Positions 9,043 to 53,055 of a stretch of DNA of 64,000 nt are shown in pieces; positions within the stretch are counted from its first letter, which is position 1, and each line of letters begins with the position of its first letter. This stretch comes from an uncultured Methanomassiliicoccus sp. (GTDB lineage Archaea > Thermoplasmatota > Thermoplasmata > Methanomassiliicoccales > UBA472). The translations under genes were made by a program, and so were the position numbers. The DNA lies in contig CAZPFU010000005.1 of the NCBI GenBank assembly GCA_964585915.1, forward strand, positions 7,452 to 71,451, read 5' to 3'. The notes beneath the pieces were generated by a model, which was given only the letters and a program-made list of their open reading frames with translations, was not told the origin of the DNA and ran no database searches.

Positions 9043-9120
9043 GGGGCCGTGGGGTAGCTTGGTCCATCCTTCGGGCTTTGGGAGCCTGAGACTCCGATTC
9101 AAATTCGGACGGCCTCACCA
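9043..9120 (+). tRNA. tRNA-Pro (TGG), CCA encoded
   Basis: Acceptor GGGGCCG/CGGCCTC, anticodon arm CGGGC-TT-TGG-GA-GCCTG, T arm TCCGA-TTCAAAT-TCGGA, ends ACCA. Confidence 0.95.
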
Positions 9121-9358: not shown

Positions 9359-10614
9359 GCGAGGCGGATGGGGCTCTGCGCCTGGGGGAGAGGGTGGCCC
9401 TCACGTCCACCCTGGTCACCGCGCTTCTGGCCCTGGGCAAGGGCGCGGGGGGGCTGCTGACCGGTTCGCTGGTCCTGTTGTCCGATGCGGTGCATTCGGC
9501 CATGGACGTGATGCCGGTGGCCGCCTCCTGGCTTGGATTGAGGGTCAGCCGGAGGAAGCCCGACGAGCGCTTCCCCTATGGCTACTTCAAGGCCGAATCG
9601 GTGGCCACCCTGTTCATATCGCTGTTCATAATATTCGCCGCTCTGGAGCTGGTCGTGGAAGGCTACTCCCGGCTGTTCCAGGCCTCGGAGGTCTCCGAGC
9701 CCCTCCTGGCCGCAGGGGTGTCCCTGGCCTCGGCGATCGCATCGGCCTTGCTGGCCAGGTATCAGGGGGCAGCCGGAGAGCGCATCGGCTCCCAGTCCCT
9801 CATCATCAACGCACGGGACACCTACATGGACGTGTTCGTCTCCCTGATGGTGGTCGCGGCCATCGCCCTTGCGTACTATGAGGTGCCTTACGTGGAGGGC
9901 CTGGCCATCATGGCCATCTCCGTGTTCATCCTCAAGATCGGTCTGGAGTCCATCAAGGACGCGGTGTTCGCCCTGATGGACATCTCCCCGAGCAAGGAGG
10001 TGGAGCAGAGGGTCATCAGGATCATCGGCGGCGTGGCCGGAGTGGAGGGTTTCGCCGGCCTCAAGCTCCGGCGCTCCGGTCCCTTCCTGTTCGGCGAGGT
10101 GGTCGTGAAAGTGCGCAGGCAGCTGGACGTCGAGAGGGCCCACGGGATCTCCGCCCGCCTGGAAGAGGAACTGAGAAGAGAGGTTCGGCAGCTGGAGTCC
10201 ATCACGGTGCACATCGAGCCCTGCGAGGTGCGGGAGGCACGGGTGGTGGTCCCCCTGGCGGAGGACCGGGGCATGGCCTCGATACCTTCGGAGAAGTTCG
10301 GTAGGGCGCCCTTCTTCGCCCTGGCCACGGTGGACCGCGATGAACGCAGGGTGCGGGACCTGGTCATCCTCCCCAACCCGGAGGCCGTTCGGGAGGCGCG
10401 CGCCGGCCTGCACGCGGTCCGGGCCCTGGTGCAGGAAAAGATCGACGTCCTGATAACCCCGGACATCGGGGAGATAGCCTTCCATGCCCTGCGGGACCAC
10501 CTGGTGACCGTTCATGTTCTCCGAGGCCGCCAGCTCGATGAGGTGCTCGACAACTTCCTGAGGGATGAACTGGAGCAGATATTGCAGCCCACCAAGGTGG
10601 ACCAGGATGGTTGA
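9355..10614 (+). CDS. Cation diffusion facilitator fused to a C-terminal NifB/NifX (Fe-Mo cofactor-binding-like) domain
   Basis: LSDAVHSAMD, KPDERFPYGYFKAE CDF motifs, dimerisation domain, then SEKFGRAPFF...IGEIAF NifX-like domain. Confidence 0.85.
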   Translation: MSEADGALRLGERVALTSTLVTALLALGKGAGGLLTGSLVLLSDAVHSAMDVMPVAASWLGLRVSRRKPDERFPYGYFKAESVATLFISLFIIFAALELVVEGYSRLFQASEVSEPLLAAGVSLASAIASALLARYQGAAGERIGSQSLIINARDTYMDVFVSLMVVAAIALAYYEVPYVEGLAIMAISVFILKIGLESIKDAVFALMDISPSKEVEQRVIRIIGGVAGVEGFAGLKLRRSGPFLFGEVVVKVRRQLDVERAHGISARLEEELRREVRQLESITVHIEPCEVREARVVVPLAEDRGMASIPSEKFGRAPFFALATVDRDERRVRDLVILPNPEAVREARAGLHAVRALVQEKIDVLITPDIGEIAFHALRDHLVTVHVLRGRQLDEVLDNFLRDELEQILQPTKVDQDG

Positions 10615-18990: not shown

Positions 18991-19102
18991 CCCGACTTAG
19001 CTCAGTCTGGCTAGAGCGGCTGACTGTAGTGGGATCCCGGCTTGCCGGTCCTCAGCCGCCGATATCAGCAGGTGCCCGGTTCAAATCCGGGAGTCGGGAC
19101 CA
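18991..19102 (+). tRNA. tRNA-Tyr (GTA) with a 34-nt intron at 37/38 (19030-19063), CCA encoded
   Basis: Acceptor CCCGACT/AGTCGGG, anticodon arm GCTGA-CT-GTA-G[intron]A-TCAGC, T arm CCCGG-TTCAAAT-CCGGG. Confidence 0.93.
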
Positions 19103-41764: not shown

Positions 41765-42127
41765 TCACTTGCTGGTGACCTGCACCCCGACGATCCCGAC
41801 CACGATCAGCAGCACGAAGAACAGGCGCAGAAGGTCGGAGGGTTCGTTGAACAGCAGGATGCCGACTATCAGCGCGCCTATCGCACCGATCCCGACCCAG
41901 ACCGCGTAAGCCGTGCCCATCGGAATGTTCATCTTCAGCGACTTGCCGAGAAGGTACATGCTGAAGAACAGGGCGATGAAGGTGGCGGCCGCCCAAACGA
42001 TATCCGTGAAACCTTCCGAAAGCTTCATGGCGGTGACCCAGACCGGCTCCAGGAGACCGGCCATGACCAGCAGGGTCCAGGCGGAGTCCTTGGTTCCATC
42101 TCCCGTGATCGGAACGTCCTCGGTCAT
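41765..42127 (-). CDS. SMR family (Gdx/SugE-like) transporter subunit
   Basis: AW.LL..AGLLEPVW, SEGF, GTAYAVWVGIG. Confidence 0.9.
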   Translation of the reverse strand: MTEDVPITGDGTKDSAWTLLVMAGLLEPVWVTAMKLSEGFTDIVWAAATFIALFFSMYLLGKSLKMNIPMGTAYAVWVGIGAIGALIVGILLFNEPSDLLRLFFVLLIVVGIVGVQVTSK

Positions 42128-42128
42128 C

Positions 42129-42461
42129 TCACACCCCCGCCGTCATCTGCACGCCGGCGATCCCAATCACGATCAGCAGGATGAAGCACATCCTTACAAC
42201 TTCCGCCTTCTCTTTGAAGAGGGCTATCCCGGCCACCAGGGCGCCCACGGCGCCTATGCCGGTCCAGACCGCGTAAGCGGTCCCCATCGGCAGGTCCATG
42301 TCGATGGCCAGGGCCAAAAAGTACATGCTGGCGAAGATGAAGGCCATGGTGAAGGCGCTCCAGCCTATACGCTTGAAGCCTTCGGACCTCTTGAGCCCGA
42401 TGACCCAGCATGGTTCCATGAGCCCAGCTATCACCAGGAACATCCAGGCCAGTGAGATCAT
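42129..42461 (-). CDS. SMR family (Gdx/SugE-like) transporter subunit
   Basis: AWMFLVIAGLMEPCW, SEGF, GTAYAVWTGIG. Confidence 0.9.
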   Translation of the reverse strand: MISLAWMFLVIAGLMEPCWVIGLKRSEGFKRIGWSAFTMAFIFASMYFLALAIDMDLPMGTAYAVWTGIGAVGALVAGIALFKEKAEVVRMCFILLIVIGIAGVQMTAGV

Positions 42462-42550
42462 GTGTCCGGGGAGGAACAACTTCCTATTTGCAGGTATCCT
42501 AGATGCTCCCAAGACCGCTTCCGACGCCCCGGCAGGTGAAGTTCTAATAC

Positions 42551-43375
42551 ATGACGCTGCAAGGACGCCCTGTGAGCGACGCGGCCGCTAGGGTTCCGAT
42601 AATCGACGCTTCCTCCCTTAGCAAAAGGTACGGGCGCCGGGGCGAGGTCCGGGCGGTGGACAATATTTCTCTGACGGTATACCCAGGAGAGACCTTCGGC
42701 CTCCTGGGACCGAACGGTTCGGGAAAGACCACCACCATCCGCATGCTGAACGGGATAATCAGGCCCACCTCCGGCCGGGCATTGGTGAACGGATATGACA
42801 TCGCGACGCGGATGGACGACGTGAAGCGGTCCACCGGTCTGCTGGCCGAATCGCCTGGTCTTTATGAGAAGCTCAGCCCGAGGGAGTACCTGGAGTTCGT
42901 TGGTTCGCTCTACGACGTAGATCGGACGCTGCTGAAGGACCGGGCGGACCGGTTGCTGGAGCTTTTCGACCTGAGACAGAGAGGCGATGACCTGCTGGAG
43001 GGGTTCAGCCGGGGCATGAAGCAGAAGGTGCTCATCGCCGCGGCGCTGATACACGACCCGCCGATAATCTTCCTGGACGAGCCCACCTCCGCCCTGGACC
43101 CCTTGGCCTCACTGGTCGTCCGGGACCTCATCAAGGACCTGGCGGAGAAGGCCGGCAAGACCGTGTTCGTCAGCAGCCACATCCTGCCGCTGATGGAGGA
43201 GGTGTGCGACCGCATAGCCATCATCGACCGCGGGAAGGTGACCGCGGTGGGCACCGTGGCCGAGATAATCGAAAAGGCGGGCGCCTCGACCCTGGAGGGC
43301 GCCTTCATCAGACTGACCGGGGTCGCCGGGCGCCCGGACGCCCTGTCCTGGAGGAAAGCGGTTGCCAAGGCCTAA
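42551..43375 (+). CDS. ABC exporter ATP-binding subunit
   Basis: GPNGSGKTT, FSRGMKQK, LDEPTS, SSH. Confidence 0.92.
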   Translation: MTLQGRPVSDAAARVPIIDASSLSKRYGRRGEVRAVDNISLTVYPGETFGLLGPNGSGKTTTIRMLNGIIRPTSGRALVNGYDIATRMDDVKRSTGLLAESPGLYEKLSPREYLEFVGSLYDVDRTLLKDRADRLLELFDLRQRGDDLLEGFSRGMKQKVLIAAALIHDPPIIFLDEPTSALDPLASLVVRDLIKDLAEKAGKTVFVSSHILPLMEEVCDRIAIIDRGKVTAVGTVAEIIEKAGASTLEGAFIRLTGVAGRPDALSWRKAVAKA

Positions 43376-44924
43376 ATGGTTGCTCATCGCCAGGAACGAG
43401 TATCTGCTGAAGACCAGCGGGATCAGGAGATGGCGCAGGCTCTTCCCTTTTCTCATGGTGGCGCTGCTCGCCTGGTACGTGATTTACGCCGCCCCGGCGG
43501 TGTTCTCTTTGGCCTCCGACCTCACTAAGGACCTGCTGCTCTCCGAGGCGGCGCTGTCCTTCATGCAGGTGATGCTGTTCATCATCTTCATCAGCGTGTT
43601 CACCGTCCCGATAATCCAGACCCTGCAGGACACCAACCTGGCGCCGTTGGAGACCCTGCTCTCCGCGCCGGTGCGTCCTGCGGACGTGCTGCTGGGCAAG
43701 TTCCTGGGCATGCTGCCCACCTATTCCATCCTGATCACCGTCCTGGCCGGGACGTTCCTGGCGCTGTTCATCCCTTTCGGGATGACCCTGGACCAGGTGC
43801 TGCTGTCGATCGTGGTCTTCGTCATGGTGGTCCTTATCGCGCTTTGGCTGGGGCTGCTCGCCGCGGCCATGCTGAAGGCTAGGCTTAACAGGAGCCAGAG
43901 GGGAAGGGAGGCCGGTCAGGCTTTGGCGCTGATGATCGCCCTCCCCCTGGTGGGTCTGATGTACCTCTCCATGAACGGAGAGATGATGGACGCCCTGCAG
44001 GGGAAGGGCGCCTCGCTCTCGGACGCCTTCTGGCTTCTCCCCAGCTCCTGGGGGGCGGACCTGGTGCTGCGCTTCCTGCGGCACCCGGGGGACCTGGGCT
44101 TCGAGATGGGAAGCACCCTGCTGGGGATGGCCGGCCTGGCTGGCACGCTGATGATCTCCCTGGCGGTGGGCGCCCGGTTGTCCGGACGCGCCTACGACCT
44201 GGAGCCGGTGTCCTTCGCCACCCCGCGGGCCGCGCCGGAAGGTCATTTGTACAAATACGCCCGCACGCTGGCTGGGAACAGGCATCTGGCGACCGTGCTG
44301 GTCACGGTGATGAAGGACTACGGACGTCGTTTGGAGAACCTGTCGCGGGTGGTCTACATCCTGGGCCTGGTGGTCATGATGGAGGTCTTCATGCTCGGTT
44401 CCCTCCCGCCGGGCAACTATGTCACCCTGGCATTGTTGACCGCCTCCTGGCTGATGGCCTTCCTCTGCGTCTTCGTGGTCGGCGAGGTCACCGCCCGGGG
44501 AAAGGACAATCTGTTCATCTACCGGAAGGCGCCGAGGGGAGAGACCAGACTGGTGCTCGCCAGGATCCTGCAGGGCCTGCTGGTGGTGCAGCCAGTAGCG
44601 GCCATATCGGCCTTGGTGGTGCTCCTGCCGGCCGGATTGGAAATCATCGACATCCTGCTGCTGACCGGATTGATGGTAGCGGTGTCCTCCTTCTACGTGG
44701 TCATGTCCATCGGGCTGTTCCTGCTCTTCCCGGCCTTCAGCGAGAAGCCGATGGAGGTGCTCGGCAACGCCGTATTGATGATGGCCCTGTCGTTCGTTCT
44801 CTTCATCTTCAGCTTCGCCTTCTTTGGGGAGAACGGGGGGCTGTACGCCCTGCTGATATCGAGCGCGGTCCTGGGCACGTCCTTCCTGCTGGCCGGATGG
44901 AGGAAGCTCACCCTCCTGGAATGA
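43362..44924 (+). CDS. ABC-2 type exporter permease (two fused halves)
   Basis: About 12 TM helices, LETLLSAPV motif, overlaps the ATPase stop. Confidence 0.8.
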   Translation: MPRPKWLLIARNEYLLKTSGIRRWRRLFPFLMVALLAWYVIYAAPAVFSLASDLTKDLLLSEAALSFMQVMLFIIFISVFTVPIIQTLQDTNLAPLETLLSAPVRPADVLLGKFLGMLPTYSILITVLAGTFLALFIPFGMTLDQVLLSIVVFVMVVLIALWLGLLAAAMLKARLNRSQRGREAGQALALMIALPLVGLMYLSMNGEMMDALQGKGASLSDAFWLLPSSWGADLVLRFLRHPGDLGFEMGSTLLGMAGLAGTLMISLAVGARLSGRAYDLEPVSFATPRAAPEGHLYKYARTLAGNRHLATVLVTVMKDYGRRLENLSRVVYILGLVVMMEVFMLGSLPPGNYVTLALLTASWLMAFLCVFVVGEVTARGKDNLFIYRKAPRGETRLVLARILQGLLVVQPVAAISALVVLLPAGLEIIDILLLTGLMVAVSSFYVVMSIGLFLLFPAFSEKPMEVLGNAVLMMALSFVLFIFSFAFFGENGGLYALLISSAVLGTSFLLAGWRKLTLLE

Positions 44925-44972
44925 TCCGGGGTGATTCGGCAGGATTATCCCATCACAACGACATGACGGGGC

Positions 44973-45710
44973 ATGCCGAGGCCGGCCGTCACGTCCGAGC
45001 GCCAATTGAGACGACAGGTCTCCTGGCTGGGACAGTACTGGGAATGGACCATGCGAACCCTGGTCAGGGAACGACCGGGAATGACCGCCCTGGAGGTCGG
45101 CTGCGGTCCCGGGCTGGTGATGGAGCTGTTCTCCCCGATGCTCGAGGTGACCGGGCTGGACATCGACCAGGGGATGGTCCGGCGGGTCCGAGAAAAGGGG
45201 ATGGAAGCGGTGCTTGGGGACGCGCAGGACCTACCCTTCGGAGATGAAAGCTTCGACTTCGTCTACTGCTCCTTCACCATGATGTGGCTACCGGACCAGC
45301 AAAGGGCCATGACGGAGATGGCCAGGGTGGCCCGACAATGCGTGCTGTGTCTGGCTGAACCGGACTACGGCAGGAGATCGTGCTCACCTCCGGAAGTGGC
45401 ACGGTTGGACAAAGCGCTGATCCGATCGCTGCGGGCGGAGGGGGCCGACCCGTACACCGGAAGGAAACTGAAGCGCCTGATGATGAGGGCCGGCCTGGAA
45501 GTGGACTTTGGGGCGCACGGCGGAAAATGGACCGGCGCTCAGCTCAAGGAAGAGGCGGAGGCGGAATGGAATGCGCTGTCCCAGTCCGTGGAGAGGTTCG
45601 TGGACCCTGAGACCCTGGAAAGGGCGAGGTTCGCCTGGGACGAGGCCCTGGCAGATGATACCCTGGTGCTCATCAACCCCATGTTCCACGCGATTGGCTG
45701 GAAGCGCTGA
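44973..45710 (+). CDS. Class I SAM-dependent methyltransferase
   Basis: LEVGCGPG, GLDID, GDAQDLPF..ESFD. Confidence 0.88.
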   Translation: MPRPAVTSERQLRRQVSWLGQYWEWTMRTLVRERPGMTALEVGCGPGLVMELFSPMLEVTGLDIDQGMVRRVREKGMEAVLGDAQDLPFGDESFDFVYCSFTMMWLPDQQRAMTEMARVARQCVLCLAEPDYGRRSCSPPEVARLDKALIRSLRAEGADPYTGRKLKRLMMRAGLEVDFGAHGGKWTGAQLKEEAEAEWNALSQSVERFVDPETLERARFAWDEALADDTLVLINPMFHAIGWKR

Positions 45711-47060
45711 TCACATGTTCGAGTGCCTGTCGAGGCATATGTAATCGCCGTGCTCTCTGGACAGCGGGCAGCCGCCCCCGCAGACCTCCTTCATGCCGCA
45801 GTCGACGCAATCCCCGTCCAGGTACTCCCGGTTGCGGATGCGCTTGCAGAGGTCGTGTTCCCATATGGCCTTCCAGTCATCGGTCAGGATGTTTCCTAAC
45901 GGTTCGTAATAGCTCTGGCACGGGAGGACCGTCCCGTCCGGTTCGATGGCCATGTTCAGGGCGCAGGCGGTGCACTGTTTGATCCCCAGCCCGTGGTTGA
46001 TGGGATTGAGCTCGTGGTAAGGCGTAGGGGTGTACCAGATTAGTTTGACGTTCTTCTCGACGGCTATGGCCTTCAGCGAATCCAACGCCTTGGCCAGCTC
46101 TTCATAGGAGATGCCTTCGGCGTTGACCCCCTTCCCGGACCGTATCAGCCCGTTGAAGGCGATGTTCTTTACTCCCAAGGAAATAAGGAAGCGCATGGTC
46201 CCCTCCACCCCGTTCAGATTGGAGCGCATGATGGTGGTGTTCGTCGAAACGTAAAGGTCCTCCGCCAGCGCGACCTTGAGCCCTTCGACCGTCTCCTTCC
46301 ATGCGCCCTCACTGCCGACCAGGCGGTCGTGGGCCTCCGCCTCGGACGAAAGCACGGTTATCTGCACATGGTCCAGGCCCCTGACGACCAGGTCGTGAAG
46401 GTATCCCGGCTTGGCGAGATTGCGGCCGTTGCTCACCAGCCCGGTCACCTGCCCGTACTTCTCGGACCAGGAGACCAGATCCGGCAAGGCCTGGCATTCC
46501 GTCGGTTCGCCGCCGGTGAAGACGATGTGCGGTATGCCGAGCTGCCACGTTTTCGTTATCACCTGCTTCCATTGTTCAGCAGTAAGTTCCTTCAGCTCGC
46601 GCGGCTCGTTATAGCAGTGTCCGCAGCGGTTCTGGCAACGATATGTGAGCGCCAGGTCCATGCGGTACGGCGCCGGGAAGTCGTCCTTGCCTATCGACGG
46701 CTTGTCGGGACCGATCATGCCCAGTACCTGGTTGTCCCCTTTCAGGAACTCGACGAGCTGCCCCTTGACCAGGACATGACGCTCTATGGCCTTGTCCTTC
46801 TTCAAATGCTTGTAGCGGCGGCGCAGGTACTTGGCGACCTGCTTATCGTCGCGGTCCTCCAGGACGCAGCGGACGTGGTCCAGGGCGGTGCCGTTCAGGA
46901 AGATTATGCTTGAGGCGTCAACGAGAAGCGCGCCCTTGCTCTCCGAGTCGATGCGCAGATGGAAGCGGTGGCCCTTCAGGTCGCCGAGGCCATCGTACTT
47001 GTGGACGCCGGCGCGGAGCCCTTTTCCGTTAAGCTCCCGCCACCAGTTCCTGAGGGTCAT
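45711..47060 (-). CDS. Radical SAM/SPASM enzyme with a PqqD/RRE-like N-terminal domain
   Basis: CQNRCGHC (CxxxCxxC), FTGGEP, SPASM CTAC...C...CVDC.....CGGGC; ATG overlaps the upstream stop. Confidence 0.9.
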   Translation of the reverse strand: MTLRNWWRELNGKGLRAGVHKYDGLGDLKGHRFHLRIDSESKGALLVDASSIIFLNGTALDHVRCVLEDRDDKQVAKYLRRRYKHLKKDKAIERHVLVKGQLVEFLKGDNQVLGMIGPDKPSIGKDDFPAPYRMDLALTYRCQNRCGHCYNEPRELKELTAEQWKQVITKTWQLGIPHIVFTGGEPTECQALPDLVSWSEKYGQVTGLVSNGRNLAKPGYLHDLVVRGLDHVQITVLSSEAEAHDRLVGSEGAWKETVEGLKVALAEDLYVSTNTTIMRSNLNGVEGTMRFLISLGVKNIAFNGLIRSGKGVNAEGISYEELAKALDSLKAIAVEKNVKLIWYTPTPYHELNPINHGLGIKQCTACALNMAIEPDGTVLPCQSYYEPLGNILTDDWKAIWEHDLCKRIRNREYLDGDCVDCGMKEVCGGGCPLSREHGDYICLDRHSNM

Positions 47061-48691
47061 CGTCCACCCCCGGCGCACGCGCAGGCGCAAGCACAAGCAC
47101 AGGCGCAATGCCCTCCGCTGCGCACCGGTCCAGAACTGGAGACCGGCATCGGATTGGTCACCCTGACCACGTCGTTGGCGATGCCGCGCATGTCGTTCAC
47201 CAGGTTGTTGGCGGCGTTCCGCACGTTGTTCACGTAATCGTTGGCCATCTTGCCCACGTCCGGAATGAAGCCGGAGGTGCCAACCCCGCCGGGGACCGGC
47301 CGGTGTATGAATATCGGCAGGATGAGGATGTCCCTCTGCATGCGCCCGGGATAATCGCGGTCAAGCATCATCCAGTCATTGTTCTTCTGCAGCTGGAACG
47401 CGGCATCCTCCGGCGTCCCGGCCGTCTTTACCTGCTGCCAGGCCTTGTCGCATATCGATTCGTAATACCTCTGGGTGGCCGATTGCTCAAAGCCCTTCAT
47501 CTTCTCCAGGGTGGCGTTGATGAGGCTCACCAGAGCTTTCTTCAGCAGACCGCGGTCCACCGTCCCGTCCGGACCGATGGTGCGAAGATAGTCCGTCTCA
47601 TAGGGGTGTTCGCCGACCTCGGCCAGCTTCTGCAGGCGCATCGGCGCTTGTTCCGACAGCACCCGTACCTTGCCCTTCCTGATCAGGCCGAAGAGGACCA
47701 TGGTGGAGACCATCTCCAGTGGTCTCTCCAGAACGACGGCCGCCTCCACCACGGTCAGGTCGCGCCGCGGACCGGCGCCCACCACGTTCATCACCGGCTC
47801 GTAGTAATCTCCGCGCCGCTTTCTTGCTACGGACACATTGATCACCACGAACAGGGTGGCGAACAAGGCCATGACGATAAGCGGCAACAGCAGCGACACC
47901 AAGGCCCAGATGTCCCCGAAGATGTCCATCTCCGGGTCGGGCAGGAAGTACTGCTCGACGTAAACGGCCGGGAAGCCCACGCCAACGTCGTAGCTGCCGG
48001 CCGCCACGTTGTCAGGATAGACGTTGGAGTCGGTCCACATGGCCACATGCCTTTCCGTGGCGTTGTCCCAATAGAACTGGTCCCAGGGATTGCCTTCGTA
48101 CCAGAGAGCCTGCGTTTCGTCGGTGAAGCCCTCCGGGAATATCAGCCTCTGCACCAGGGTTCCGGTCGGTCCGACCTGGAACTCCGGATCGAACCAGGTG
48201 GGGCGGAAGCTTGCGCCCACGGTGTCGTTGATCATTTCGTTCAGATACACCATGTGCGGGTTGTTCACGTGGAAGTATAGCTCGAAGGAACCGGCGCTCT
48301 CGATGGCGTTCTGAAGCGTATTGCCGAACTCCACCGCCATCCCCACATCGATGTACGGTGATTCGTGTACCTGCGAGGGAGCGTACTGGGTGCTGCCGAC
48401 GAAGATGGTGGCTTCCGCCGAATTCTCATCGTAATGGGAGTTGGGAAGCCCGATGTCCACCCCATCCAGGAAGCCGACGTTGGTGAACAGGAAGTAATAA
48501 TCGATGTCCACGCTGCCATCCCTCAGGATCGTGACGTTGACCTCTTGCCGCTCCACGGAGAAGGAGTAGTCGGCCGCCCTTGCTTCGCCGAAGGGGGATT
48601 GGTTCAGCGTCCCGAGCCCGCTGAGAAGCAGAGATGATATCAGCAGCAACGATAGGACGTTGACCGTGACATAACGCGAAAGTCGTTCCAT
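47057..48691 (-). CDS. Single-pass membrane protein (DUF2207-like ectodomain) with a C-terminal H(CA)6GGGR tail
   Basis: Signal peptide, beta-rich ectodomain (RQEVNVTILRDGSVDIDY), TM helix followed by RKRR, ends SGGHCACACACACACAGGGR. Confidence 0.85.
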   Translation of the reverse strand: MERLSRYVTVNVLSLLLISSLLLSGLGTLNQSPFGEARAADYSFSVERQEVNVTILRDGSVDIDYYFLFTNVGFLDGVDIGLPNSHYDENSAEATIFVGSTQYAPSQVHESPYIDVGMAVEFGNTLQNAIESAGSFELYFHVNNPHMVYLNEMINDTVGASFRPTWFDPEFQVGPTGTLVQRLIFPEGFTDETQALWYEGNPWDQFYWDNATERHVAMWTDSNVYPDNVAAGSYDVGVGFPAVYVEQYFLPDPEMDIFGDIWALVSLLLPLIVMALFATLFVVINVSVARKRRGDYYEPVMNVVGAGPRRDLTVVEAAVVLERPLEMVSTMVLFGLIRKGKVRVLSEQAPMRLQKLAEVGEHPYETDYLRTIGPDGTVDRGLLKKALVSLINATLEKMKGFEQSATQRYYESICDKAWQQVKTAGTPEDAAFQLQKNNDWMMLDRDYPGRMQRDILILPIFIHRPVPGGVGTSGFIPDVGKMANDYVNNVRNAANNLVNDMRGIANDVVRVTNPMPVSSSGPVRSGGHCACACACACACAGGGR

Positions 48692-48696
48692 CGCGC

Positions 48697-49053
48697 TCAC
48701 CACTTGGGCGATTCCTCCAGGGAGGAGATGGTGCCGCAGTACGGACAGGTCATGATGACCCCGCCCTGCACGACCTTGAGGTTCTCGTCCGTGAGCGGCG
48801 CTCCGCAGCTCTTGCAGTTCAGCTCCTTCTTCTCCATCTGCCCGGAACCGCTCATCGTCACATTGAAGTTCTGGGTCACCAGCGTGGGCTTGGACGCCTC
48901 GACCCTTTTACTGCGGTAGACGAAGACCATGAGCACGATGGCCATCAGCACCAGCGCCCCGCCGGTTATGAGGTTCTGCGTACCAGCTGCGATAAGGAAT
49001 ATCACTCCCAGAAGCATCAGGAATATGGCCACGAAGAGGATGACGCTCTCCAT
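48697..49053 (-). CDS. Two-TM membrane protein with a C-terminal zinc ribbon
   Basis: Two hydrophobic helices then CKSCGAPL...CPYCG; its stop overlaps the GGTGAG RBS of the next gene. Confidence 0.8.
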   Translation of the reverse strand: MESVILFVAIFLMLLGVIFLIAAGTQNLITGGALVLMAIVLMVFVYRSKRVEASKPTLVTQNFNVTMSGSGQMEKKELNCKSCGAPLTDENLKVVQGGVIMTCPYCGTISSLEESPKW

Positions 49054-49204
49054 AACGCGGTTCAATAAGTTTCCCCCGGCATCGCATGATGTTCCAGGAT
49101 TTTAAAGGTGATTGAGGATGCGGCCCAAATGATAGGAAGCCGGAAAAGACCAAGGCCTGGGCTGAAGAGAGGGGGGAGCGTTTCACACGCACATCCTTAC
49201 CATC

Positions 49205-51535
49205 TCATTTCCTTAACTTGAACCACCAGACACCTAAGGCGGCTGCCGCCACGATGACCACCACTACGATCGCAATCATCAACGTCTGACCATCGGACCC
49301 GTCATTTTCAGAGGGGACGGTGACGTTCAGAACATTGGACAGAGGTGAGTTGCCAAGGTCGTTCACCGCCTTCACGGCAAAGAAGTACTTGACACCGGGG
49401 TCCAGCCCGGTGACGGTGGCCGATGTACTGGTGTTCGACAACGTTCCTCCGAACTGGGCGTCCGGGGAAACGGTGCCGTAGAACACCGTGTAGCCGGTGA
49501 TCGACAGGTTGCCGTCGTTCTCCGGGCTGGTCCAGGTCAGGGTAACCACGGTACCCTCGGCCGTGGCTGAGACCAGCAGCGGGGAGGATGGTACCGAGAG
49601 CGCCATCGAGGCGATCCCGTTCCAGGTGGGCGAGGTGAAGTTGGCTGCGCCCAGATAGTATTGCACGACCAGCGATCCGTTCAGCATGTGCTTCCAGTTG
49701 ATGTCGGTATCCGGGGCGTCCCCATTGAAGCGCAGGACCTCCAGAGCGGGGAGATCGCAGAAAGAGCGGTACCCGAGATAGGCGACACTCCCAGGAACAA
49801 TAATGTGAGTGAGGTTGCAGGCATTGATGGCCCAATCGCCTATGGTCACCACTCCATCCGGAATATCGTATGCGCCTGTCCAACCAGAGGGGACCTTGAT
49901 CAATATGGTCCTGTTGGCGTTGAACAGCGCCCCGTCCATGCTGGAGTAGTTGACGCCTCCCTCATCGACATTGATCTTCAGCAAGGCGTAGCATTCGTCG
50001 AAGGCCCATTCCCCGATGTAAGTCACACTGCCAGGGATGTTGATCTCGGTGAGCGTTGGACACTCCGAGAAAGCGCCCTCCCCGATGTAGGTCACCCCTT
50101 CAGGGATGGTCACCGAGGTCAAGCTCTGGGCATAGGCCATGCTCCAGTCGCGCAGGGAGGTCACGGTGTCGGGGAAGACGTACGCACCTGCCTTTCCAGA
50201 TGGGTACTGAAGAAGCTCCGTGACATCCTTGTCGAAAAGCACGCCATCCAGGCTGGAATAGATGGGATTGCCCGGATCGACCTCGATCTCGGTGAGGTTC
50301 CTGTCATACGATAGCGCCCATATCGGTATGTCCGTCACGTTCTTCCCTATCCCGACCCGGCTCAGTTCGGGGCAGGAGCTGAAAGCGGCGTCTCCCAGGG
50401 CGGTGACGCTGTCCGGCACATTGTAACTTCCTCCCAGCCCGCAGGGGTACTTGATGAGCCTGGTGAGGTCCTCGTTGAACAGGACCCCTCCGGCGCTCTC
50501 GTATACGGTGTTCGACGGATCGACGTTAATGGACGTCATGGACCAGCAGCCGCTGAAGGTCCGGTCCGCCATGGAGGCGACGCTGCCCGGAATGTCCACG
50601 CTGGTCAGGGACGTGCAGGAGGTGAACGCATAGTTCCCTATTGTGCTCAAGCCCTCGTTCAGGGTCAGGGAGCTCAGAGAGGCGCAGCCCGAGAACGCGC
50701 TCGCCCCGATGGTGAGCACGTTCCCGGGTATCTCCAGGGCAGCCAGCGAGCTGCAGAAGTAGAAGGCGTTGACACCTATGGAGGAGGTGCCGGTCCCTAT
50801 GGTGAGCGAGGACAGGGAGTCGCACACGATGAAGGCGCTGTTCCCTATGGTGTTGACGCTGTCCGGTATGGTTATTGATTCCAGGGCTCGGCAGTAGGCG
50901 AAGGTCCAGTCGGATATGGCGCTGATCCCGCTGCCCAAGGTCACGGAGCTTAGCGATGTGCAGGAGTAGAAGGCCTTCTGTTGGATGAAGGTCACGCTGT
51001 CCGGGATGGTTATTGAGGTTATCTTGCTGCAATAGACGAAGGCCTCGTAACCGATGCTGTCCGTGGTCCCCGGCACATCGTACCCTCCTTCCAATCCCGG
51101 CGGATACATCACCAGGGCACCGAGGTTTTTACTGAAAAGCACCCCGTCCAAGCTGGCGAATTGCGTGCTGTTGCTGTCGACATATATGGCGGTCAGGTTC
51201 CAGCACTCCTGGAAGGCCATGGAGCTGACCCCTCCCAAACTGGATGGAAGGGTAACTGATGTCACGCTCTCCATCTGATAGAACGCATGCCAGTCTATCA
51301 TGGTCACCGGTCTTCCATCTATCAGCTCGGGGATGACCACGTCTCCCCCCGGACCTGTGTAACTGGTGATCTTGACCTCGGTGTCGCCGTTTATGAGCTC
51401 GTACTCATAGTCACCGCTCGCGACCGCCGTGGCGGGGCCGGTGAACACGATCGATACGAATAGCGACACCAGCATTATCAATGATAAAAAGAGAGCGCTT
51501 AACGAGATCAACCTGGATGATCCAATCTCTTCCAC
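49205..51535 (-). CDS. BspA-like leucine-rich-repeat surface protein with FN3 domain and C-terminal TM anchor
   Basis: Repeated L.S.TIP.SV..IG..AF..C units, four DGVLF-type inserts, FN3 (LTWTSP...GYTVFYG...KYFFAVKAVN), TM plus basic tail. Confidence 0.9.
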   Translation of the reverse strand: MEEIGSSRLISLSALFLSLIMLVSLFVSIVFTGPATAVASGDYEYELINGDTEVKITSYTGPGGDVVIPELIDGRPVTMIDWHAFYQMESVTSVTLPSSLGGVSSMAFQECWNLTAIYVDSNSTQFASLDGVLFSKNLGALVMYPPGLEGGYDVPGTTDSIGYEAFVYCSKITSITIPDSVTFIQQKAFYSCTSLSSVTLGSGISAISDWTFAYCRALESITIPDSVNTIGNSAFIVCDSLSSLTIGTGTSSIGVNAFYFCSSLAALEIPGNVLTIGASAFSGCASLSSLTLNEGLSTIGNYAFTSCTSLTSVDIPGSVASMADRTFSGCWSMTSINVDPSNTVYESAGGVLFNEDLTRLIKYPCGLGGSYNVPDSVTALGDAAFSSCPELSRVGIGKNVTDIPIWALSYDRNLTEIEVDPGNPIYSSLDGVLFDKDVTELLQYPSGKAGAYVFPDTVTSLRDWSMAYAQSLTSVTIPEGVTYIGEGAFSECPTLTEINIPGSVTYIGEWAFDECYALLKINVDEGGVNYSSMDGALFNANRTILIKVPSGWTGAYDIPDGVVTIGDWAINACNLTHIIVPGSVAYLGYRSFCDLPALEVLRFNGDAPDTDINWKHMLNGSLVVQYYLGAANFTSPTWNGIASMALSVPSSPLLVSATAEGTVVTLTWTSPENDGNLSITGYTVFYGTVSPDAQFGGTLSNTSTSATVTGLDPGVKYFFAVKAVNDLGNSPLSNVLNVTVPSENDGSDGQTLMIAIVVVVIVAAAALGVWWFKLRK

Positions 51536-51636: not shown

Positions 51637-53055
51637 TCAGTCTGACTGGTTGGACAGCCCCTTCTCGCCCAGCCGGGAGATGATGGCCCCCACGATCGAT
51701 AGCGCGCCTCCGAAGGCAACGGCGGTGGCGACCGAGTCTGAAAGCTCTCCGGCCAGAGGTCCGCCGGCTATCGCCCCGTAATCCATGGACCCCATCATCA
51801 AGGTCATGAGGATGGTGGCCAGGGAGACGCCGACCGCCAGGGACAGGTTCCTGGTGGTGGCCTGGATGCTGGAAGCGAGACCGCTCTTCTTCATTGGCAG
51901 GGCCATCATCAGCTCGGCGTTGTTCGGGGTCTGGAACAGGCAGCTTCCGACGCCCATGACCGCGAAGGCGATCAGGACGATCGGGATATTGGCGTCCATG
52001 AACCCGTAGGCCATCATGAAGAAGGCGGCGGCGCGGATCAGGTGCGCTAACGTGGTGTACGGGAACATACGCTTGCGGTCGTATATTCGGCCGACCAGGG
52101 GCGAGCCGAACATGGTTATGGCCGGGAGGATCATGAAGATGAAACCTACCGTTACTGGATCATAGACCAGCACCCCTTCGAAGTAGAAGGGGCCGAGGAT
52201 GGTGACCATGTTCATGGAGATGAAGAACACGACCATGCTGAGCACGGTCAAGGAGAAGCGGCGCACCTTGAATACCGAGAGGTCCAGCAGCGGTTCCTCG
52301 ACCCGGCGCTCCCGGCGGATGAAGAGGAGGAACGTGGCTAGGAGCACTATGACCAGGATGGCGGTGTTCGTGTCGACCTTTCCGGTGTTGCCGATCTCGC
52401 CCAGCGCCAGTACGAGCGACGCCATCATCACTATCCACAGGAAGGCGCCGACCAGATCAAGGTGGAACTTATTTGACAGAGTTTCCTCCAGGCGGAGGAA
52501 CTTGAACGCGGCCACGGCGGCGAACAGTCCGATCGGGACGTTGACGAAAAAGATCGACTGCCAGCCAAAGGTGCCGACCAGAACGCCACCGATCACCGGA
52601 CCAGCCATGCCGCCCACGGCGACCGTCGAACCGAGGAACCCCAGGGCCTTGCCGCGGTCCCTTATGCTGAAAAGACGGAAAACGATGGCCGTGGACACGC
52701 TGAACATCATGGACGCGCCAAGACCTTGCAGTAACCGGAACGCGATGAGCTGCGTGAGGTCGGAGGACAAGGCGCACGAGAGCGAGGATAGCGAGAACAC
52801 CACCAGGCCGATGGTGAACAGCTTGGCCTGACCGACCCGTTCGGCGATCTTGCCGCATATGATCAGGAAGCAGGTCTGGACCAGTAGGTAACCGGTGACC
52901 ACCCATTGGGTGTCGGCGACGGTCACCTGGAAATAGGAGGTTATTGCGGGCAGGGCGATGTTCAGAGCGACAGCGTCTAGCACGGACATGAACACCCCCA
53001 GCATGACGATTACCAGGGCTACGTACTTTCCCTTTGTCCCGGTGTCGCCGTTCAT
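51637..53055 (-). CDS. MFS transporter, DHA2 (EmrB/QacA) family
   Basis: FMSVLDAVALNIALP, GKIAERVG, QSIFFVNVPIG; 14-TM pattern. Confidence 0.9.
   Translation of the reverse strand: MNGDTGTKGKYVALVIVMLGVFMSVLDAVALNIALPAITSYFQVTVADTQWVVTGYLLVQTCFLIICGKIAERVGQAKLFTIGLVVFSLSSLSCALSSDLTQLIAFRLLQGLGASMMFSVSTAIVFRLFSIRDRGKALGFLGSTVAVGGMAGPVIGGVLVGTFGWQSIFFVNVPIGLFAAVAAFKFLRLEETLSNKFHLDLVGAFLWIVMMASLVLALGEIGNTGKVDTNTAILVIVLLATFLLFIRRERRVEEPLLDLSVFKVRRFSLTVLSMVVFFISMNMVTILGPFYFEGVLVYDPVTVGFIFMILPAITMFGSPLVGRIYDRKRMFPYTTLAHLIRAAAFFMMAYGFMDANIPIVLIAFAVMGVGSCLFQTPNNAELMMALPMKKSGLASSIQATTRNLSLAVGVSLATILMTLMMGSMDYGAIAGGPLAGELSDSVATAVAFGGALSIVGAIISRLGEKGLSNQSD

What the first reader, a model, noticed from the sequence alone, without database searches (positions are those of the whole stretch)
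45711..49053. Candidate new system: radical SAM/SPASM-RRE enzyme coupled to a large membrane protein with an H(CA)6GGGR tail
Seen: three co-oriented minus-strand genes. They encode a two-TM zinc-ribbon protein (48697-49053), a 544-aa single-pass membrane protein ending SGGHCACACACACACAGGGR (47057-48691), and a 449-aa radical SAM enzyme whose ATG overlaps that stop (ATGA at 47057-47060). Established: SPASM radical SAM enzymes with PqqD-like RREs (sactipeptide/ranthipeptide maturases such as CteB/PapB) crosslink Cys thiols in short Cys-rich precursor peptides. Inference: here the precursor may be the cytoplasmic tail of a full-size membrane protein, giving RiPP-type thioether modification of an envelope protein in an archaeon, with the zinc-ribbon protein as partner or sensor. 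I recall similar CA-repeat tails near radical SAM genes in other anaerobes but cannot verify this and know of no characterised example.
Basis: partly seen in the sequence, partly recalled or inferred. Interest (0 to 1): 0.9.

Follow-up and report, generated by a model that had tools for sequence, protein, structure and literature searches.

The report
Radical SAM cassette for a membrane-protein tail
A membrane protein whose cytoplasmic end is an invariant Cys-Ala repeat (…CACACAGGGR) is almost always encoded next to a peptide-modifying radical SAM enzyme, a small zinc-ribbon membrane protein and a methyltransferase, in both archaea and several bacterial phyla; this looks like an undescribed system that chemically modifies the tail of a full-size membrane protein.

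Summary
Three co-oriented, overlapping minus-strand genes encode a 2-TM zinc-ribbon protein, a 544/548-aa membrane protein ending HCACACACACACAGGGR, and a 449-aa radical SAM/SPASM enzyme.

- **From the membrane protein:** at least 316 species genomes carry a relative. In 80 loci, about 70 have the enzyme directly downstream and 74 have the zinc-ribbon gene directly upstream.
- **From the enzyme:** in 75 testable metagenome loci (42–90% identity), 68 have a Cys-Ala tail gene ending at the enzyme's start.

The last ten residues are invariant at about 30% overall identity, while their codons vary freely. The tail is predicted to be cytoplasmic and disordered.

New findings:
- A class I methyltransferase is part of the cassette.
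- Anaerolineae add a cysteine-less pseudo-radical-SAM paralogue, and one protein fuses that paralogue to the membrane protein.
- The ectodomain has a ribophorin I/M1-aminopeptidase-like fold.

No Pfam or NCBIfam family and no paper searched covers the system. The most likely mechanism is RiPP-style modification of the tail, probably Cys thioethers plus methylation. The chemistry and the physiological role are untested.

The parts
49100..49106 (-). TTTAAAA, an archaeal TATA-box-like element about 45 nt upstream of the zinc-ribbon ATG; candidate promoter of the three-gene operon
   Evidence: Read by eye. It lies in the only sizeable intergenic gap (49054-49204) upstream of the three overlapping genes. 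Not tested statistically.
48697..49053 (-). Zinc-ribbon membrane protein (118 aa; alternative TTG start at 49065): two N-terminal TM segments, then a cytoplasmic CxxC...CxxC ribbon ending EESPKW
   Evidence: ORF. Weak zinc-ribbon Pfam hits. Found directly upstream of the tail gene in 74 of 80 loci. 73 homologues conserve C..CG, CPYC and the EEPKW C-terminus.
47057..48703 (-). Tail-bearing membrane protein (548 aa from GTG 48703; 544 aa from ATG 48691)
   Evidence: AF2 model with mean pLDDT 86.9. No Pfam or NCBIfam family. 471 clusters at E<=1e-30 in the representative library.
47969..48562 (-). Extracellular beta-sandwich domain (residues 44-241 in 544-aa numbering), with the conserved VDxGLPN motif
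   Evidence: pLDDT >95. Foldseek matches ribophorin I/Ost1 (6s7o_E, 7.6e-9) and the N-domain of M1 aminopeptidases (about 1e-6). Invariant D79, G81, P83.
47810..47923 (-). Transmembrane helix (residues 257-294), followed by RKRRGDYYEP (positive-inside, so the C-terminal half is cytoplasmic)
   Evidence: sequence.
47144..47257 (-). Conserved leader-like segment upstream of the tail: two short helices ending in the near-invariant T-N-P-x-P motif (residues 479-516); candidate recognition sequence for the enzyme's RRE
   Evidence: A483 and T512 are invariant, N513 and P514 near-invariant, in 35- and 104-sequence alignments. Helices 479-496 and 501-512. The recognition role is inferred.
47057..47110 (-). 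Tail H(CA)6GGGR plus stop, preceded by a Gly-rich linker; putative core and modification site
   Evidence: DNA read. The last 10 residues are invariant while synonymous codons and stop codons vary freely. pLDDT <50, i.e. disordered.
45711..47060 (-). Radical SAM/SPASM enzyme (449 aa): N-terminal PqqD-like RRE domain (about residues 18-110), CxxxCxxC at C142-C149 (46614-46637), SPASM cysteines C363-C431 (45768-45974)
   Evidence: PF04055 3.8e-15 and PF13186 6.3e-9. Best NCBIfam hit is PqqE at 121 bits against a cut-off of 381. PDB sequence matches: PqqE 6c8v, SkfB 6efn, SuiB 5v1q. PqqD domain in 8/10 orthologues. Invariant cysteines.
44973..45710 (+). Class I SAM-dependent methyltransferase (245 aa), convergent with and abutting the radical SAM gene; conserved cassette member
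   Evidence: PF08241 1.2e-21. An orthologue lies within the flanks in 54-55 of 80 genome loci. It is convergent and abutting in all archaeal loci, and co-directional downstream in bacteria. It overlaps the stop of the fusion gene in L161.

Best explanation
This is a conserved cassette of three to five genes that post-translationally modifies the cytoplasmic C-terminal tail of a dedicated transmembrane protein.

The membrane protein is exported through a signal peptide. This leaves a ribophorin-I-like beta-sandwich outside the cell, one TM helix, and a cytoplasmic winged-helix/helical domain. The cytoplasmic part ends in a conserved ...VTNPxP segment, a Gly-rich linker and the invariant core (CA)nGGGR.

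I propose these steps:
1. The radical SAM/SPASM enzyme, which is translationally coupled to the membrane protein, docks on the conserved segment through its N-terminal PqqD-like RRE.
2. It uses 5'-deoxyadenosyl radical chemistry on the Cys-Ala core. The most likely product is a set of Cys thioether cross-links to Ala or Gly carbons (sactionine or ranthionine/lanthionine-type).
3. The class I methyltransferase adds a further modification, such as S-methylation or methylation of the C-terminal carboxyl.
4. In Anaerolineae, a cysteine-less paralogue of the enzyme that keeps the RRE acts as a non-catalytic chaperone for the tail.
5. The zinc-ribbon membrane protein is a membrane-bound partner.

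The modified tail stays on the protein and gives it a stable, possibly metal-binding or redox-active, cytoplasmic end.

Shown: gene linkage, domain content, topology, and invariance of the tail. Inferred: that the tail is the substrate, the type of chemistry, the order of steps, and the physiological role.
For: 1. **Two-way synteny.** Starting from the membrane protein, about 70 of 80 loci have the enzyme directly downstream and 74 of 80 have the zinc-ribbon gene upstream. Starting from the enzyme, 61 + 7 of 75 testable loci have a Cys-Ala tail gene ending at the enzyme's start, and 3 more have one within 2 kb.
2. **Translational coupling.** The window has the ATGA overlap, and the median gap is -4 nt in 47 archaeal-type loci.
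3. **Enzyme class.** It has CxxxCxxC, a full SPASM motif and a PqqD-like RRE. Its nearest solved relatives, PqqE, SkfB and SuiB, all modify peptides.
4. **A tail under protein-level selection.** CACACAGGGR is invariant at about 30% overall identity, yet all six Arg codons, all four Gly codons and all three stop codons are used. Of 139 further representatives, 106 end the same way.
5. **Accessibility.** The tail is cytoplasmic and disordered.
6. **Leader-like motif** upstream of the tail.
7. **Rosetta-stone fusion.** One protein fuses the RRE-bearing pseudo-enzyme to the membrane protein, and it is flanked by the active enzyme and the methyltransferase.
8. **Methyltransferase** conserved in 54-55 of 80 loci in two different orientations.
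Against: - There is no biochemical evidence that the tail is modified at all.
- Alternating Cys residues are also typical metal ligands, so the invariance could reflect metal binding by unmodified thiols.
- The enzyme is about equally distant from C-C cross-linkers (PqqE), thioether formers (SkfB, StsB, AlbA) and haem-pathway enzymes (NirJ, AhbD). Sequence therefore does not pick out the chemistry.
- Four tail genes with enough flanking sequence have no enzyme within 8 kb (L024, L030, L047, L050). Two to four enzyme genes have no tail gene nearby (L130, L140; L137 and L146 are ambiguous).
- Cross-links within a strict C-A-C-A repeat would form very small rings, for which I know of no precedent.
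- No protease or exporter is conserved. That argues against a secreted product, but it leaves the purpose of the modification open.
Confidence: 0.62

Rival explanations
1. The (CA)n tail is a metal- or iron-sulfur-binding site that works with free thiols, for example in sensing, buffering or trafficking a thiophilic metal in anaerobes. On this reading the radical SAM enzyme and methyltransferase act on another substrate (a small molecule or the bound ligand), or they use the tail only as a docking or cluster-donor site and do not modify it covalently.
For: The Cys-x-Cys-x-Cys alternation is the universally conserved element across all three tail variants. Such spacing is typical of metallothionein-like ligands (my own knowledge). 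The partner protein carries a zinc ribbon. The cassette is found mostly in anaerobic lineages.
Against: From my own knowledge, RRE-bearing SPASM enzymes that have been characterised act on the adjacent peptide. The Ala, Gly and terminal Arg positions are as invariant as the Cys positions in types I and II, which metal ligation alone does not require. The RRE-bearing pseudo-enzyme is fused to the membrane protein, which points to protein-protein recognition. No transporter or metal-resistance gene is conserved in the neighbourhood.
Confidence: 0.17
2. The membrane protein is a sacrificial scaffold. The tail is modified and then cleaved off to give a small Cys/Ala-derived cofactor or signalling peptide, in the way PQQ derives from PqqA or mycofactocin from the C-terminus of MftA.
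For: The best family-level hits are PqqE, and the mycofactocin maturase also matches. The core sits strictly at the C-terminus, and every homologue stops right after it, as in MftA. A methyltransferase would suit tailoring of a small product.
Against: No peptidase, exporter or other tailoring gene is conserved. Spending a 540-aa, well-folded, conserved two-domain membrane protein (pLDDT 87) per product molecule would be wasteful. Both the ectodomain and the cytoplasmic domain are under purifying selection, so the protein has a function of its own.
Confidence: 0.1
3. The adjacency is incidental. The enzyme is a housekeeping radical SAM protein (for example a cofactor-pathway enzyme mis-annotated as PqqE) that merely happens to sit next to a low-complexity membrane protein.
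For: Some database records name the enzyme PqqE. Its orthologues are more conserved (62-88% identity) than the membrane protein (about 40-85%) within Methanomassiliicoccales.
Against: The linkage holds across two domains of life and at least seven phyla, in both search directions, while other neighbours are not conserved. The genes overlap. A fusion protein exists. PqqE scores 121 bits against a cut-off of 381.
Confidence: 0.02

Closest known systems
Sactipeptide / ranthipeptide (SCIFF) maturation systems: radical SAM/SPASM enzymes with an N-terminal RRE, such as SkfB, AlbA, CteB, PapB
   Same: The domain architecture is the same: PqqD-like RRE, CxxxCxxC barrel and SPASM auxiliary-cluster motif. 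SkfB is the second-best solved relative (6efn, 8.4e-14). The putative substrate is a Cys-rich C-terminal core, preceded by a conserved recognition segment and encoded immediately upstream.
   Different: The 'precursor' here is the tail of a 544-aa folded transmembrane protein, not a peptide of 40-60 aa. No leader peptidase or exporter is conserved. The core is a strict Cys-Ala alternation ending GGGR. The cassette also includes a zinc-ribbon membrane protein, a methyltransferase and, in bacteria, a cysteine-less paralogue. No NCBIfam maturase model reaches its cut-off.
QhpD/QhpC (thioether cross-linking of the gamma subunit of quinohaemoprotein amine dehydrogenase) and anSME/sulfatase (Cys to formylglycine)
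   Same: These are radical SAM/SPASM enzymes whose Cys-containing target is a protein that stays functional after modification, not a secreted natural product (my own knowledge of these systems).
   Different: Their targets are a small periplasmic subunit or a soluble enzyme active site, not a membrane-protein tail. The anSME motif C-x-P/A-x-R is absent from the tail (sequence). Neither family scores near its cut-off.
PqqE/PqqD/PqqA and MftC/MftB/MftA cofactor pathways
   Same: PqqE is the best-scoring family and the best solved structure (121 bits; 6c8v 7.4e-19). Both pathways use a PqqD-type RRE, and MftC acts at the extreme C-terminus of its substrate.
   Different: The score is far below the PqqE cut-off (381). 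The core has no Glu/Tyr or Val-Tyr. No pqqB/C or mftD/E-type genes are conserved nearby.
DUF2207 membrane proteins (PF09972/PF20990)
   Same: The overall build is similar: signal peptide, extracellular beta-rich domain, TM, cytoplasmic region and a Gly-rich C-terminal tail. Faint DUF2207 N- and C-domain hits occur in 2-3 of 35 family members.
   Different: The window's protein has no hit at E<=1. DUF2207 itself is uncharacterised. As far as I know it is not described as carrying a (CA)nGGGR end or a radical SAM partner, and no paper searched holds both terms.
TIGR04347 'pseudo-SAM/SPASM' proteins
   Same: They are a precedent for a radical-SAM-fold paralogue that has lost its cluster cysteines. 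The Anaerolineae paralogue lacks both CxxxCxxC and the SPASM Cys residues.
   Different: The match is only 39 bits against a cut-off of 525, so this is a different family, and here it is paired with an active paralogue.

Membership tests
Radical SAM superfamily (PF04055) | CxxxCxxC motif for the SAM-binding 4Fe-4S cluster; Pfam gathering score | tested here: met
   C142-x3-C146-x2-C149 is invariant in 10 orthologues. PF04055 scores 56.9 bits against a cut-off of 29.5.
SPASM subfamily (PF13186 / TIGR04085-type) | C-terminal seven-Cys motif (Cx9-15Gx4C ... Cx2Cx5Cx3C ... C) for auxiliary clusters | tested here: met
   PF13186 scores 36.4 bits against a cut-off of 21.5. C363...G376...C381 and C418-x2-C421-x5-C427-x3-C431 are invariant. 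A further Cys follows in GDYIC.
RRE-dependent peptide maturases (sacti/ranthipeptide-type) | N-terminal PqqD-like RiPP recognition element | tested here: met
   PF05402 is hit in 8/10 orthologues (best 9.9e-8) and in L032 at residues 73-130 (1.2e-7). The window's own copy is below threshold, but it aligns with invariant R32/H34/L35/R36/G43.
RRE-dependent peptide maturases (sacti/ranthipeptide-type) | Cys-rich substrate encoded next to the enzyme | tested here: met
   A tail gene ends at the enzyme's start in 68/75 testable loci. The substrate is the tail of a 544-aa protein, not a short peptide.
RRE-dependent peptide maturases (sacti/ranthipeptide-type) | Formation of S-C(alpha/beta/gamma) thioether bonds | not testable with these tools
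   This needs anaerobic reconstitution and MS/MS.
PqqE (TIGR02109) | Score at or above the curated cut-off; PqqA Glu-x3-Tyr substrate | tested here: not met
   121.1 bits against a cut-off of 381.35. The adjacent substrate has a Cys-Ala core.
SCIFF / other curated maturase equivalogs (SkfB, AlbA, StsB, GeoRSP, MftC, HxsC, ScmE/F, WgkB) | Score at or above each model's curated cut-off | tested here: not met
   All are far below cut-off for both the archaeal and a bacterial orthologue.
anSME / sulfatase maturation | Target motif (C/S)-x-(P/A)-x-R in the substrate | tested here: not met
   The tail reads CACACAGGGR, and no C-x-P/A-x-R occurs in register.
DUF2207 (PF09972, PF20990) | Pfam gathering score | tested here: not met
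   The window protein gives 0 hits at E<=1. Only 2-3 of 35 relatives give E of about 0.007-0.009.
Class I SAM-dependent methyltransferases (PF08241) | Pfam gathering score | tested here: met
   77.6 bits against a cut-off of 21.2. No specific NCBIfam equivalog is reached; the best is DVU_1556 at 54.8 bits against 155.

The most novel reading that the evidence does not exclude
This is a new class of protein post-translational modification. A RiPP-type radical SAM/RRE machinery, complete with a dedicated pseudo-enzyme chaperone and a methyltransferase, installs a protein-borne poly-thioether or thiolate-derived cofactor (metal-binding or redox-active) on the cytoplasmic end of a receptor-like transmembrane protein. 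The cassette has been exchanged between anaerobic archaea and bacteria. The system would link an extracellular ribophorin-I-like binding domain to a chemically unusual intracellular terminus.
Probability: 0.4. Interest if true: 0.9.

Novelty: new variant of a known kind. Interest (0 to 1): 0.8.

Why it matters
Radical SAM/SPASM enzymes with an RRE are known mainly as makers of small secreted peptides. Here the same machinery is tied, across two domains of life and roughly a thousand 50%-identity sequence clusters (913 at E<=1e-10, 1367 at E<=1e-3), to the end of a large conserved membrane protein. It would extend RiPP logic to membrane-protein maturation.

The substrate is also unusually clean to work with. 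The core is an invariant ten-residue sequence containing only Cys, Ala, Gly and Arg, so it may reveal new radical chemistry such as very small thioether rings or radical-made lanthionine.

It would give a first functional handle on a whole uncharacterised family with a DUF2207-like build. The paired active and inactive enzyme paralogues, and the natural fusion between the inactive one and the membrane protein, are a ready-made case for studying how RRE-bearing pseudo-enzymes present substrates.

The hypothesis can be tested directly by co-expression and mass spectrometry.

Tried and rejected
- **ABC transporter (42551-44924, +) as exporter of the system: rejected.** Orthologues occur only in the two closest relatives, L001 and L002. 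Elsewhere only unrelated, distant ABC ATPases appear.
- **BspA-type LRR/fn3 surface protein upstream (49205-51535): rejected.** It is not conserved beyond close relatives.
- **DNA-level explanation of the CA repeat (structural or slippage element): rejected.** The codons, including Arg and stop codons, vary freely while the peptide is invariant.
- **Upstream extension of the enzyme ORF (TTG 47108, 'MRLCLCLRLR...'): spurious.** It is the repeat DNA read in another frame.
- **Fold of the cytoplasmic domain: no answer.** No significant PDB match was found (best Vps74/GOLPH3, E=0.16).
- **Stand-alone Cys-rich peptides near orphan enzyme genes (L130, L140, L137, L146): none found**.
- **Curated families: none apply.** NCBIfam and Pfam give no family for the membrane protein or the zinc-ribbon protein, in either the archaeal or a bacterial version.
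- **Literature: nothing relevant.** I searched for the motif, for DUF2207 plus radical SAM, and for RiPP, membrane and archaea terms.
- **Methyltransferase specificity: not resolved.** Its PDB relatives are generic class I enzymes. The match to LahSB, a lanthipeptide methyltransferase which I recall acts on the C-terminal carboxyl, is no better than the matches to unrelated enzymes.

Full report
**1. The observation**

- The first ORF (48697-49053, 118 aa) has two hydrophobic segments followed by CKSCG...CPYCG...EESPKW.
- The second ends SGGHCACACACACACAGGGR. The DNA reads cat tgc gcc tgt gct tgt gct tgc gcc tgc gcg tgc gcc ggg ggt gga cgA TGA. The start codon of the third gene is the ATG inside cgATGA.
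- The second gene most likely begins at GTG 48703 (MVSAMERL...), as in its homologues. That start overlaps the stop of the first gene by 7 nt, so both junctions overlap.
- The only sizeable gap upstream (49054-49204) contains a TTTAAAA element about 45 nt before the first ATG (read by eye).
- The third gene encodes a 449-aa protein with PF04055 and PF13186, CxxxCxxC at C142-C149 and a complete SPASM cysteine pattern.
- Names attached to database hits place the window in Methanomassiliicoccales.

**2. Is the tail real and selected?**

A search with the membrane protein found 137 relatives. Essentially every full-length relative ends in (CA)nGGGR.

In a 35-sequence alignment and a 104-sequence alignment, the mean column identity is 44% and 36%. 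Bacterial members are only about 30% identical to the window protein. Yet the last ten residues, CACACAGGGR, are invariant.

In 77 genome loci, those ten codons use both Cys codons, all four Ala and Gly codons, all six Arg codons and all three stop codons. Selection therefore acts on the peptide, not on the DNA.

A profile search of 1.84 billion representative proteins found 471 clusters at E<=1e-30 and 913 at E<=1e-10. Of 139 new top hits, 106 end in CACACAGGGR. The others are near variants, truncated fragments or the type III tail.

Three tail types exist:
- Type I: G-rich linker plus (CA)3-7GGGR. Found in Methanomassiliicoccales and other Thermoplasmatota.
- Type II: CACACACAG-CACACAGGGR. 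Found in bacteria.
- Type III: C[AV]CAC[AV]SCAC[AV]CACVSCACACA[GSH]GG[AV][RGH]. Found on contigs that look archaeal.

The common denominator is the C-x-C-x-C alternation followed by Gly-Gly at the very C-terminus.

**3. Is the enzyme linked to it?**

*Forward, from the membrane protein.* A scan of one genome per GTDB species found at least 316 genomes with a relative of the membrane protein, and 80 loci were retrieved. They come from Methanomassiliicoccales, other Thermoplasmatota, Anaerolineae and other Chloroflexota, Zixibacteria, Cloacimonadota, Acidobacteriota, Fermentibacteria, Edwardsbacteria and others.
- A homologue of the window's enzyme lies directly downstream in about 70 of the 80 loci.
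- The zinc-ribbon gene lies directly upstream in 74 of the 80 loci.
- Most exceptions are contig ends.
- Four loci with enough flanking sequence lack the enzyme (L024, L030, L047, L050).

*Reverse, from the enzyme.* A metagenome scan with an alignment of the enzyme gave 80 loci at 42-90% identity. Of these, 75 have upstream sequence and could be tested.
- In 61, a (CA)nGGGR gene ends at the enzyme's start.
- In 7 more, a type III tail gene does.
- In 3, the tail gene lies about 1.5 kb upstream with an insertion in between.
- In 2 to 4, there is none.

The median gap between the tail gene's stop and the enzyme's start is -4 nt in 47 type I loci.

Other neighbours of the window are not conserved. 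This applies to the ABC transporter, the LRR protein, the MFS gene and the SMR genes.

**4. Additional members of the cassette**

*Methyltransferase.* The class I methyltransferase at 44973-45710 (+; PF08241, 1.2e-21) abuts the 3' end of the enzyme gene. An orthologue lies within the flanks in 54-55 of 80 loci. It is convergent and abutting in every archaeal locus, and co-directional downstream in bacteria.

*Pseudo-enzyme.* Most Anaerolineae loci insert a gene of about 385 aa between the enzyme and the methyltransferase. It is a paralogue of the enzyme (30-35% identity over its full length). It keeps the N-terminal domain and the barrel but has lost both CxxxCxxC and all SPASM cysteines. I therefore call it a pseudo-radical-SAM protein. 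Its N-terminus weakly matches a lasso-peptide PqqD chaperone model.

*Distribution.* Of the type II loci, 48 have both paralogues, 34 have only the active one, 6 have only the inactive type next to the tail gene, and 8 have neither.

*Fusion protein.* One representative protein (P0376, 948 aa) fuses such a cysteine-less, RRE-bearing domain to the N-terminus of a complete tail-bearing membrane protein. On its contig it is preceded by the SPASM end of an active enzyme. It is followed by the methyltransferase, with overlapping stop and start codons. This Rosetta-stone arrangement argues that the enzyme family physically engages the membrane protein.

**5. The enzyme**

The closest curated families are PqqE (121 bits against a cut-off of 381), NirJ2, TIGR04053, AhbD, GeoRSP, SkfB, StsB, MftC and AlbA. 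All fall far below their cut-offs, for the archaeal protein and for a bacterial orthologue.

The closest solved structures by sequence are PqqE (6c8v), SkfB (6efn) and SuiB (5v1q).

Eight of ten orthologues hit Pfam PqqD in the N-terminal 130 residues. The window's copy aligns to them with invariant residues. It is therefore an RRE-SPASM enzyme of the peptide-modifying kind, but it belongs to no described subfamily.

**6. The membrane protein**

The AlphaFold2 model (104-sequence alignment, mean pLDDT 86.9) shows these elements:
- an N-terminal hydrophobic helix that resembles a signal peptide;
- a beta-sandwich at residues 44-241 (pLDDT >95);
- a long TM helix at 257-294, followed by RKRRGDYYEP;
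- a cytoplasmic winged-helix-like unit and helical bundle, up to about residue 455;
- two short helices at 479-512, ending in the near-invariant TNPxP;
- a disordered Gly-rich linker and tail (pLDDT <50).

Foldseek matches the ectodomain to ribophorin I/Ost1 of oligosaccharyltransferase (7.6e-9) and to the N-domain of M1 aminopeptidases (about 1e-6).

The cytoplasmic domain was modelled separately (pLDDT 84). It has no significant structural match.

Faint DUF2207 hits in a few relatives suggest a distant relationship to that uncharacterised family. Some relatives have a duplicated ectodomain (766-838 aa).

**7. Most likely mechanism**

The layout of the C-terminus mirrors a RiPP precursor: a conserved segment (helices plus VTNPxP), a flexible Gly linker, and an invariant Cys-rich core at the free C-terminus. 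Here it is attached to a membrane protein. The tail lies on the same side of the membrane as the enzyme.

I therefore propose the following:
- The RRE docks on the conserved segment.
- The enzyme performs radical chemistry on the core.
- The methyltransferase adds a second modification.
- The pseudo-enzyme, where present, acts as a chaperone.

The core offers only Cys, Ala, Gly and Arg, and Cys-rich cores are the classic SPASM substrates. Thioether formation from Cys sulfur to an Ala or Gly carbon is therefore the most economical guess. Sequence does not discriminate between this and other radical chemistries.

My estimates:
- that the cassette is a functional unit: about 0.95;
- that the tail is the substrate: about 0.6-0.65;
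- that the chemistry is thioether formation: about 0.35.

The physiological role of the protein is unknown. A ligand-binding ectodomain coupled to a chemically special cytoplasmic end is one possibility.

**8. Rivals**

- An unmodified metal-binding tail. This is plausible because of the Cys-x-Cys spacing. It explains less well the invariant Ala, Gly and Arg positions and the RRE fusion.
- A sacrificial scaffold that releases a small product. No peptidase or exporter is conserved, and the scaffold is expensive and well conserved.
- Incidental adjacency. The two-way synteny effectively excludes it.

**9. Comparison with what is known, and novelty**

The system works like a sactipeptide, ranthipeptide or SCIFF system. 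In keeping the product on a protein it resembles QhpD/QhpC or anSME. It is a member of none of the curated families.

Neither the membrane protein nor the zinc-ribbon protein matches any Pfam or NCBIfam model. No paper in the searchable library mentions the motif or the pairing.

I rate it a new variant of a known kind: RRE-dependent radical SAM maturation applied to the tail of a dedicated transmembrane protein, with a conserved partner set.

**10. Verdict**

- The chemistry is untested.
- Interest: 0.8.

Noticed in passing
L032:11099-12268 (also L059:10986-12164, L066:11171-12322 and about 48 other bacterial loci): Anaerolineae cassettes carry a second paralogue of the radical SAM enzyme. 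It keeps the RRE-like N-domain and the barrel but lacks CxxxCxxC and all SPASM cysteines, so it is a pseudo-enzyme. In six loci this inactive type, not the active enzyme, sits next to the tail gene.
   Followed up: partly
L161:486-3332 (protein P0376, assembly GCA_964471355.1): A 948-aa protein fuses a cysteine-less RRE/radical-SAM-like domain to the N-terminus of a complete tail-bearing membrane protein. It is flanked by an active SPASM enzyme upstream and the methyltransferase downstream, with overlapping stop and start codons.
   Followed up: partly
L124:2322-3914, L134:2376-3968, L143, L145, L155, L156, L119: A third, longer tail variant (SCVCACA[NH]CACACACVSCACACA[GH]GGAR, also ...SGGAG or ...GGVGK) occurs in a divergent clade. 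A TBP-like gene next to L155 suggests these contigs are archaeal. In this clade the terminal Arg is not invariant.
   Followed up: partly
P0241-P0244, P0247 (766-838 aa): Some family members have two tandem copies of the ribophorin-I-like ectodomain before the TM helix.
   Followed up: no
P0012/P0039 (both on an 8496-nt contig), P0033/P0044 (both on a 3953-nt contig); P0031 N-terminus MRLCLRLRLRGGW: Equal contig lengths suggest that some genomes carry two tail-bearing paralogues in tandem. So does a membrane-protein ORF whose called N-terminus looks like Cys-Ala repeat DNA read in another frame.
   Followed up: no
L005:~9400-9700 and L057:~9400-9700: In two long-read MAG loci the tail is shifted out of frame within the Gly-codon run that precedes it. 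In L005 this fuses the membrane-protein and enzyme ORFs into one 1011-aa ORF. It is probably an assembly error in a homopolymer-rich stretch, but programmed or natural frameshifting was not excluded.
   Followed up: no
window 49205-51535 (-): A 776-aa surface protein with six BspA-type LRR_5 repeats (1.4e-92), an fn3 domain and a C-terminal TM anchor lies directly upstream of the cassette. It is conserved only in close relatives.
   Followed up: partly
window 41765-42127 and 42129-42512 (-); 42551-44924 (+); 51637-53055 (-): By eye, without a domain scan, two adjacent small ORFs look like a paired SMR-type (small multidrug resistance) transporter, followed by an ORF pair resembling an ABC ATPase plus a large permease. 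A putative 472-aa MFS-type transporter lies on the other side of the cassette. None of these genes is conserved with the cassette beyond the closest relatives.
   Followed up: partly
window 18991-19099 (+) and 9043-9120 (+): Rfam reports a 109-nt tRNA at 18991-19099 that ARAGORN misses; it probably contains an intron. ARAGORN reports a tRNA-Pro at 9043-9120 that the Rfam gathering-threshold scan does not list.
   Followed up: no
window 43308-45005 (-), 47108-48280 (+) and other long antisense ORFs: Long ORFs antisense to real genes (565 aa and 390 aa) are typical shadow ORFs of this ~60% G+C sequence and should not be annotated as genes.
   Followed up: no
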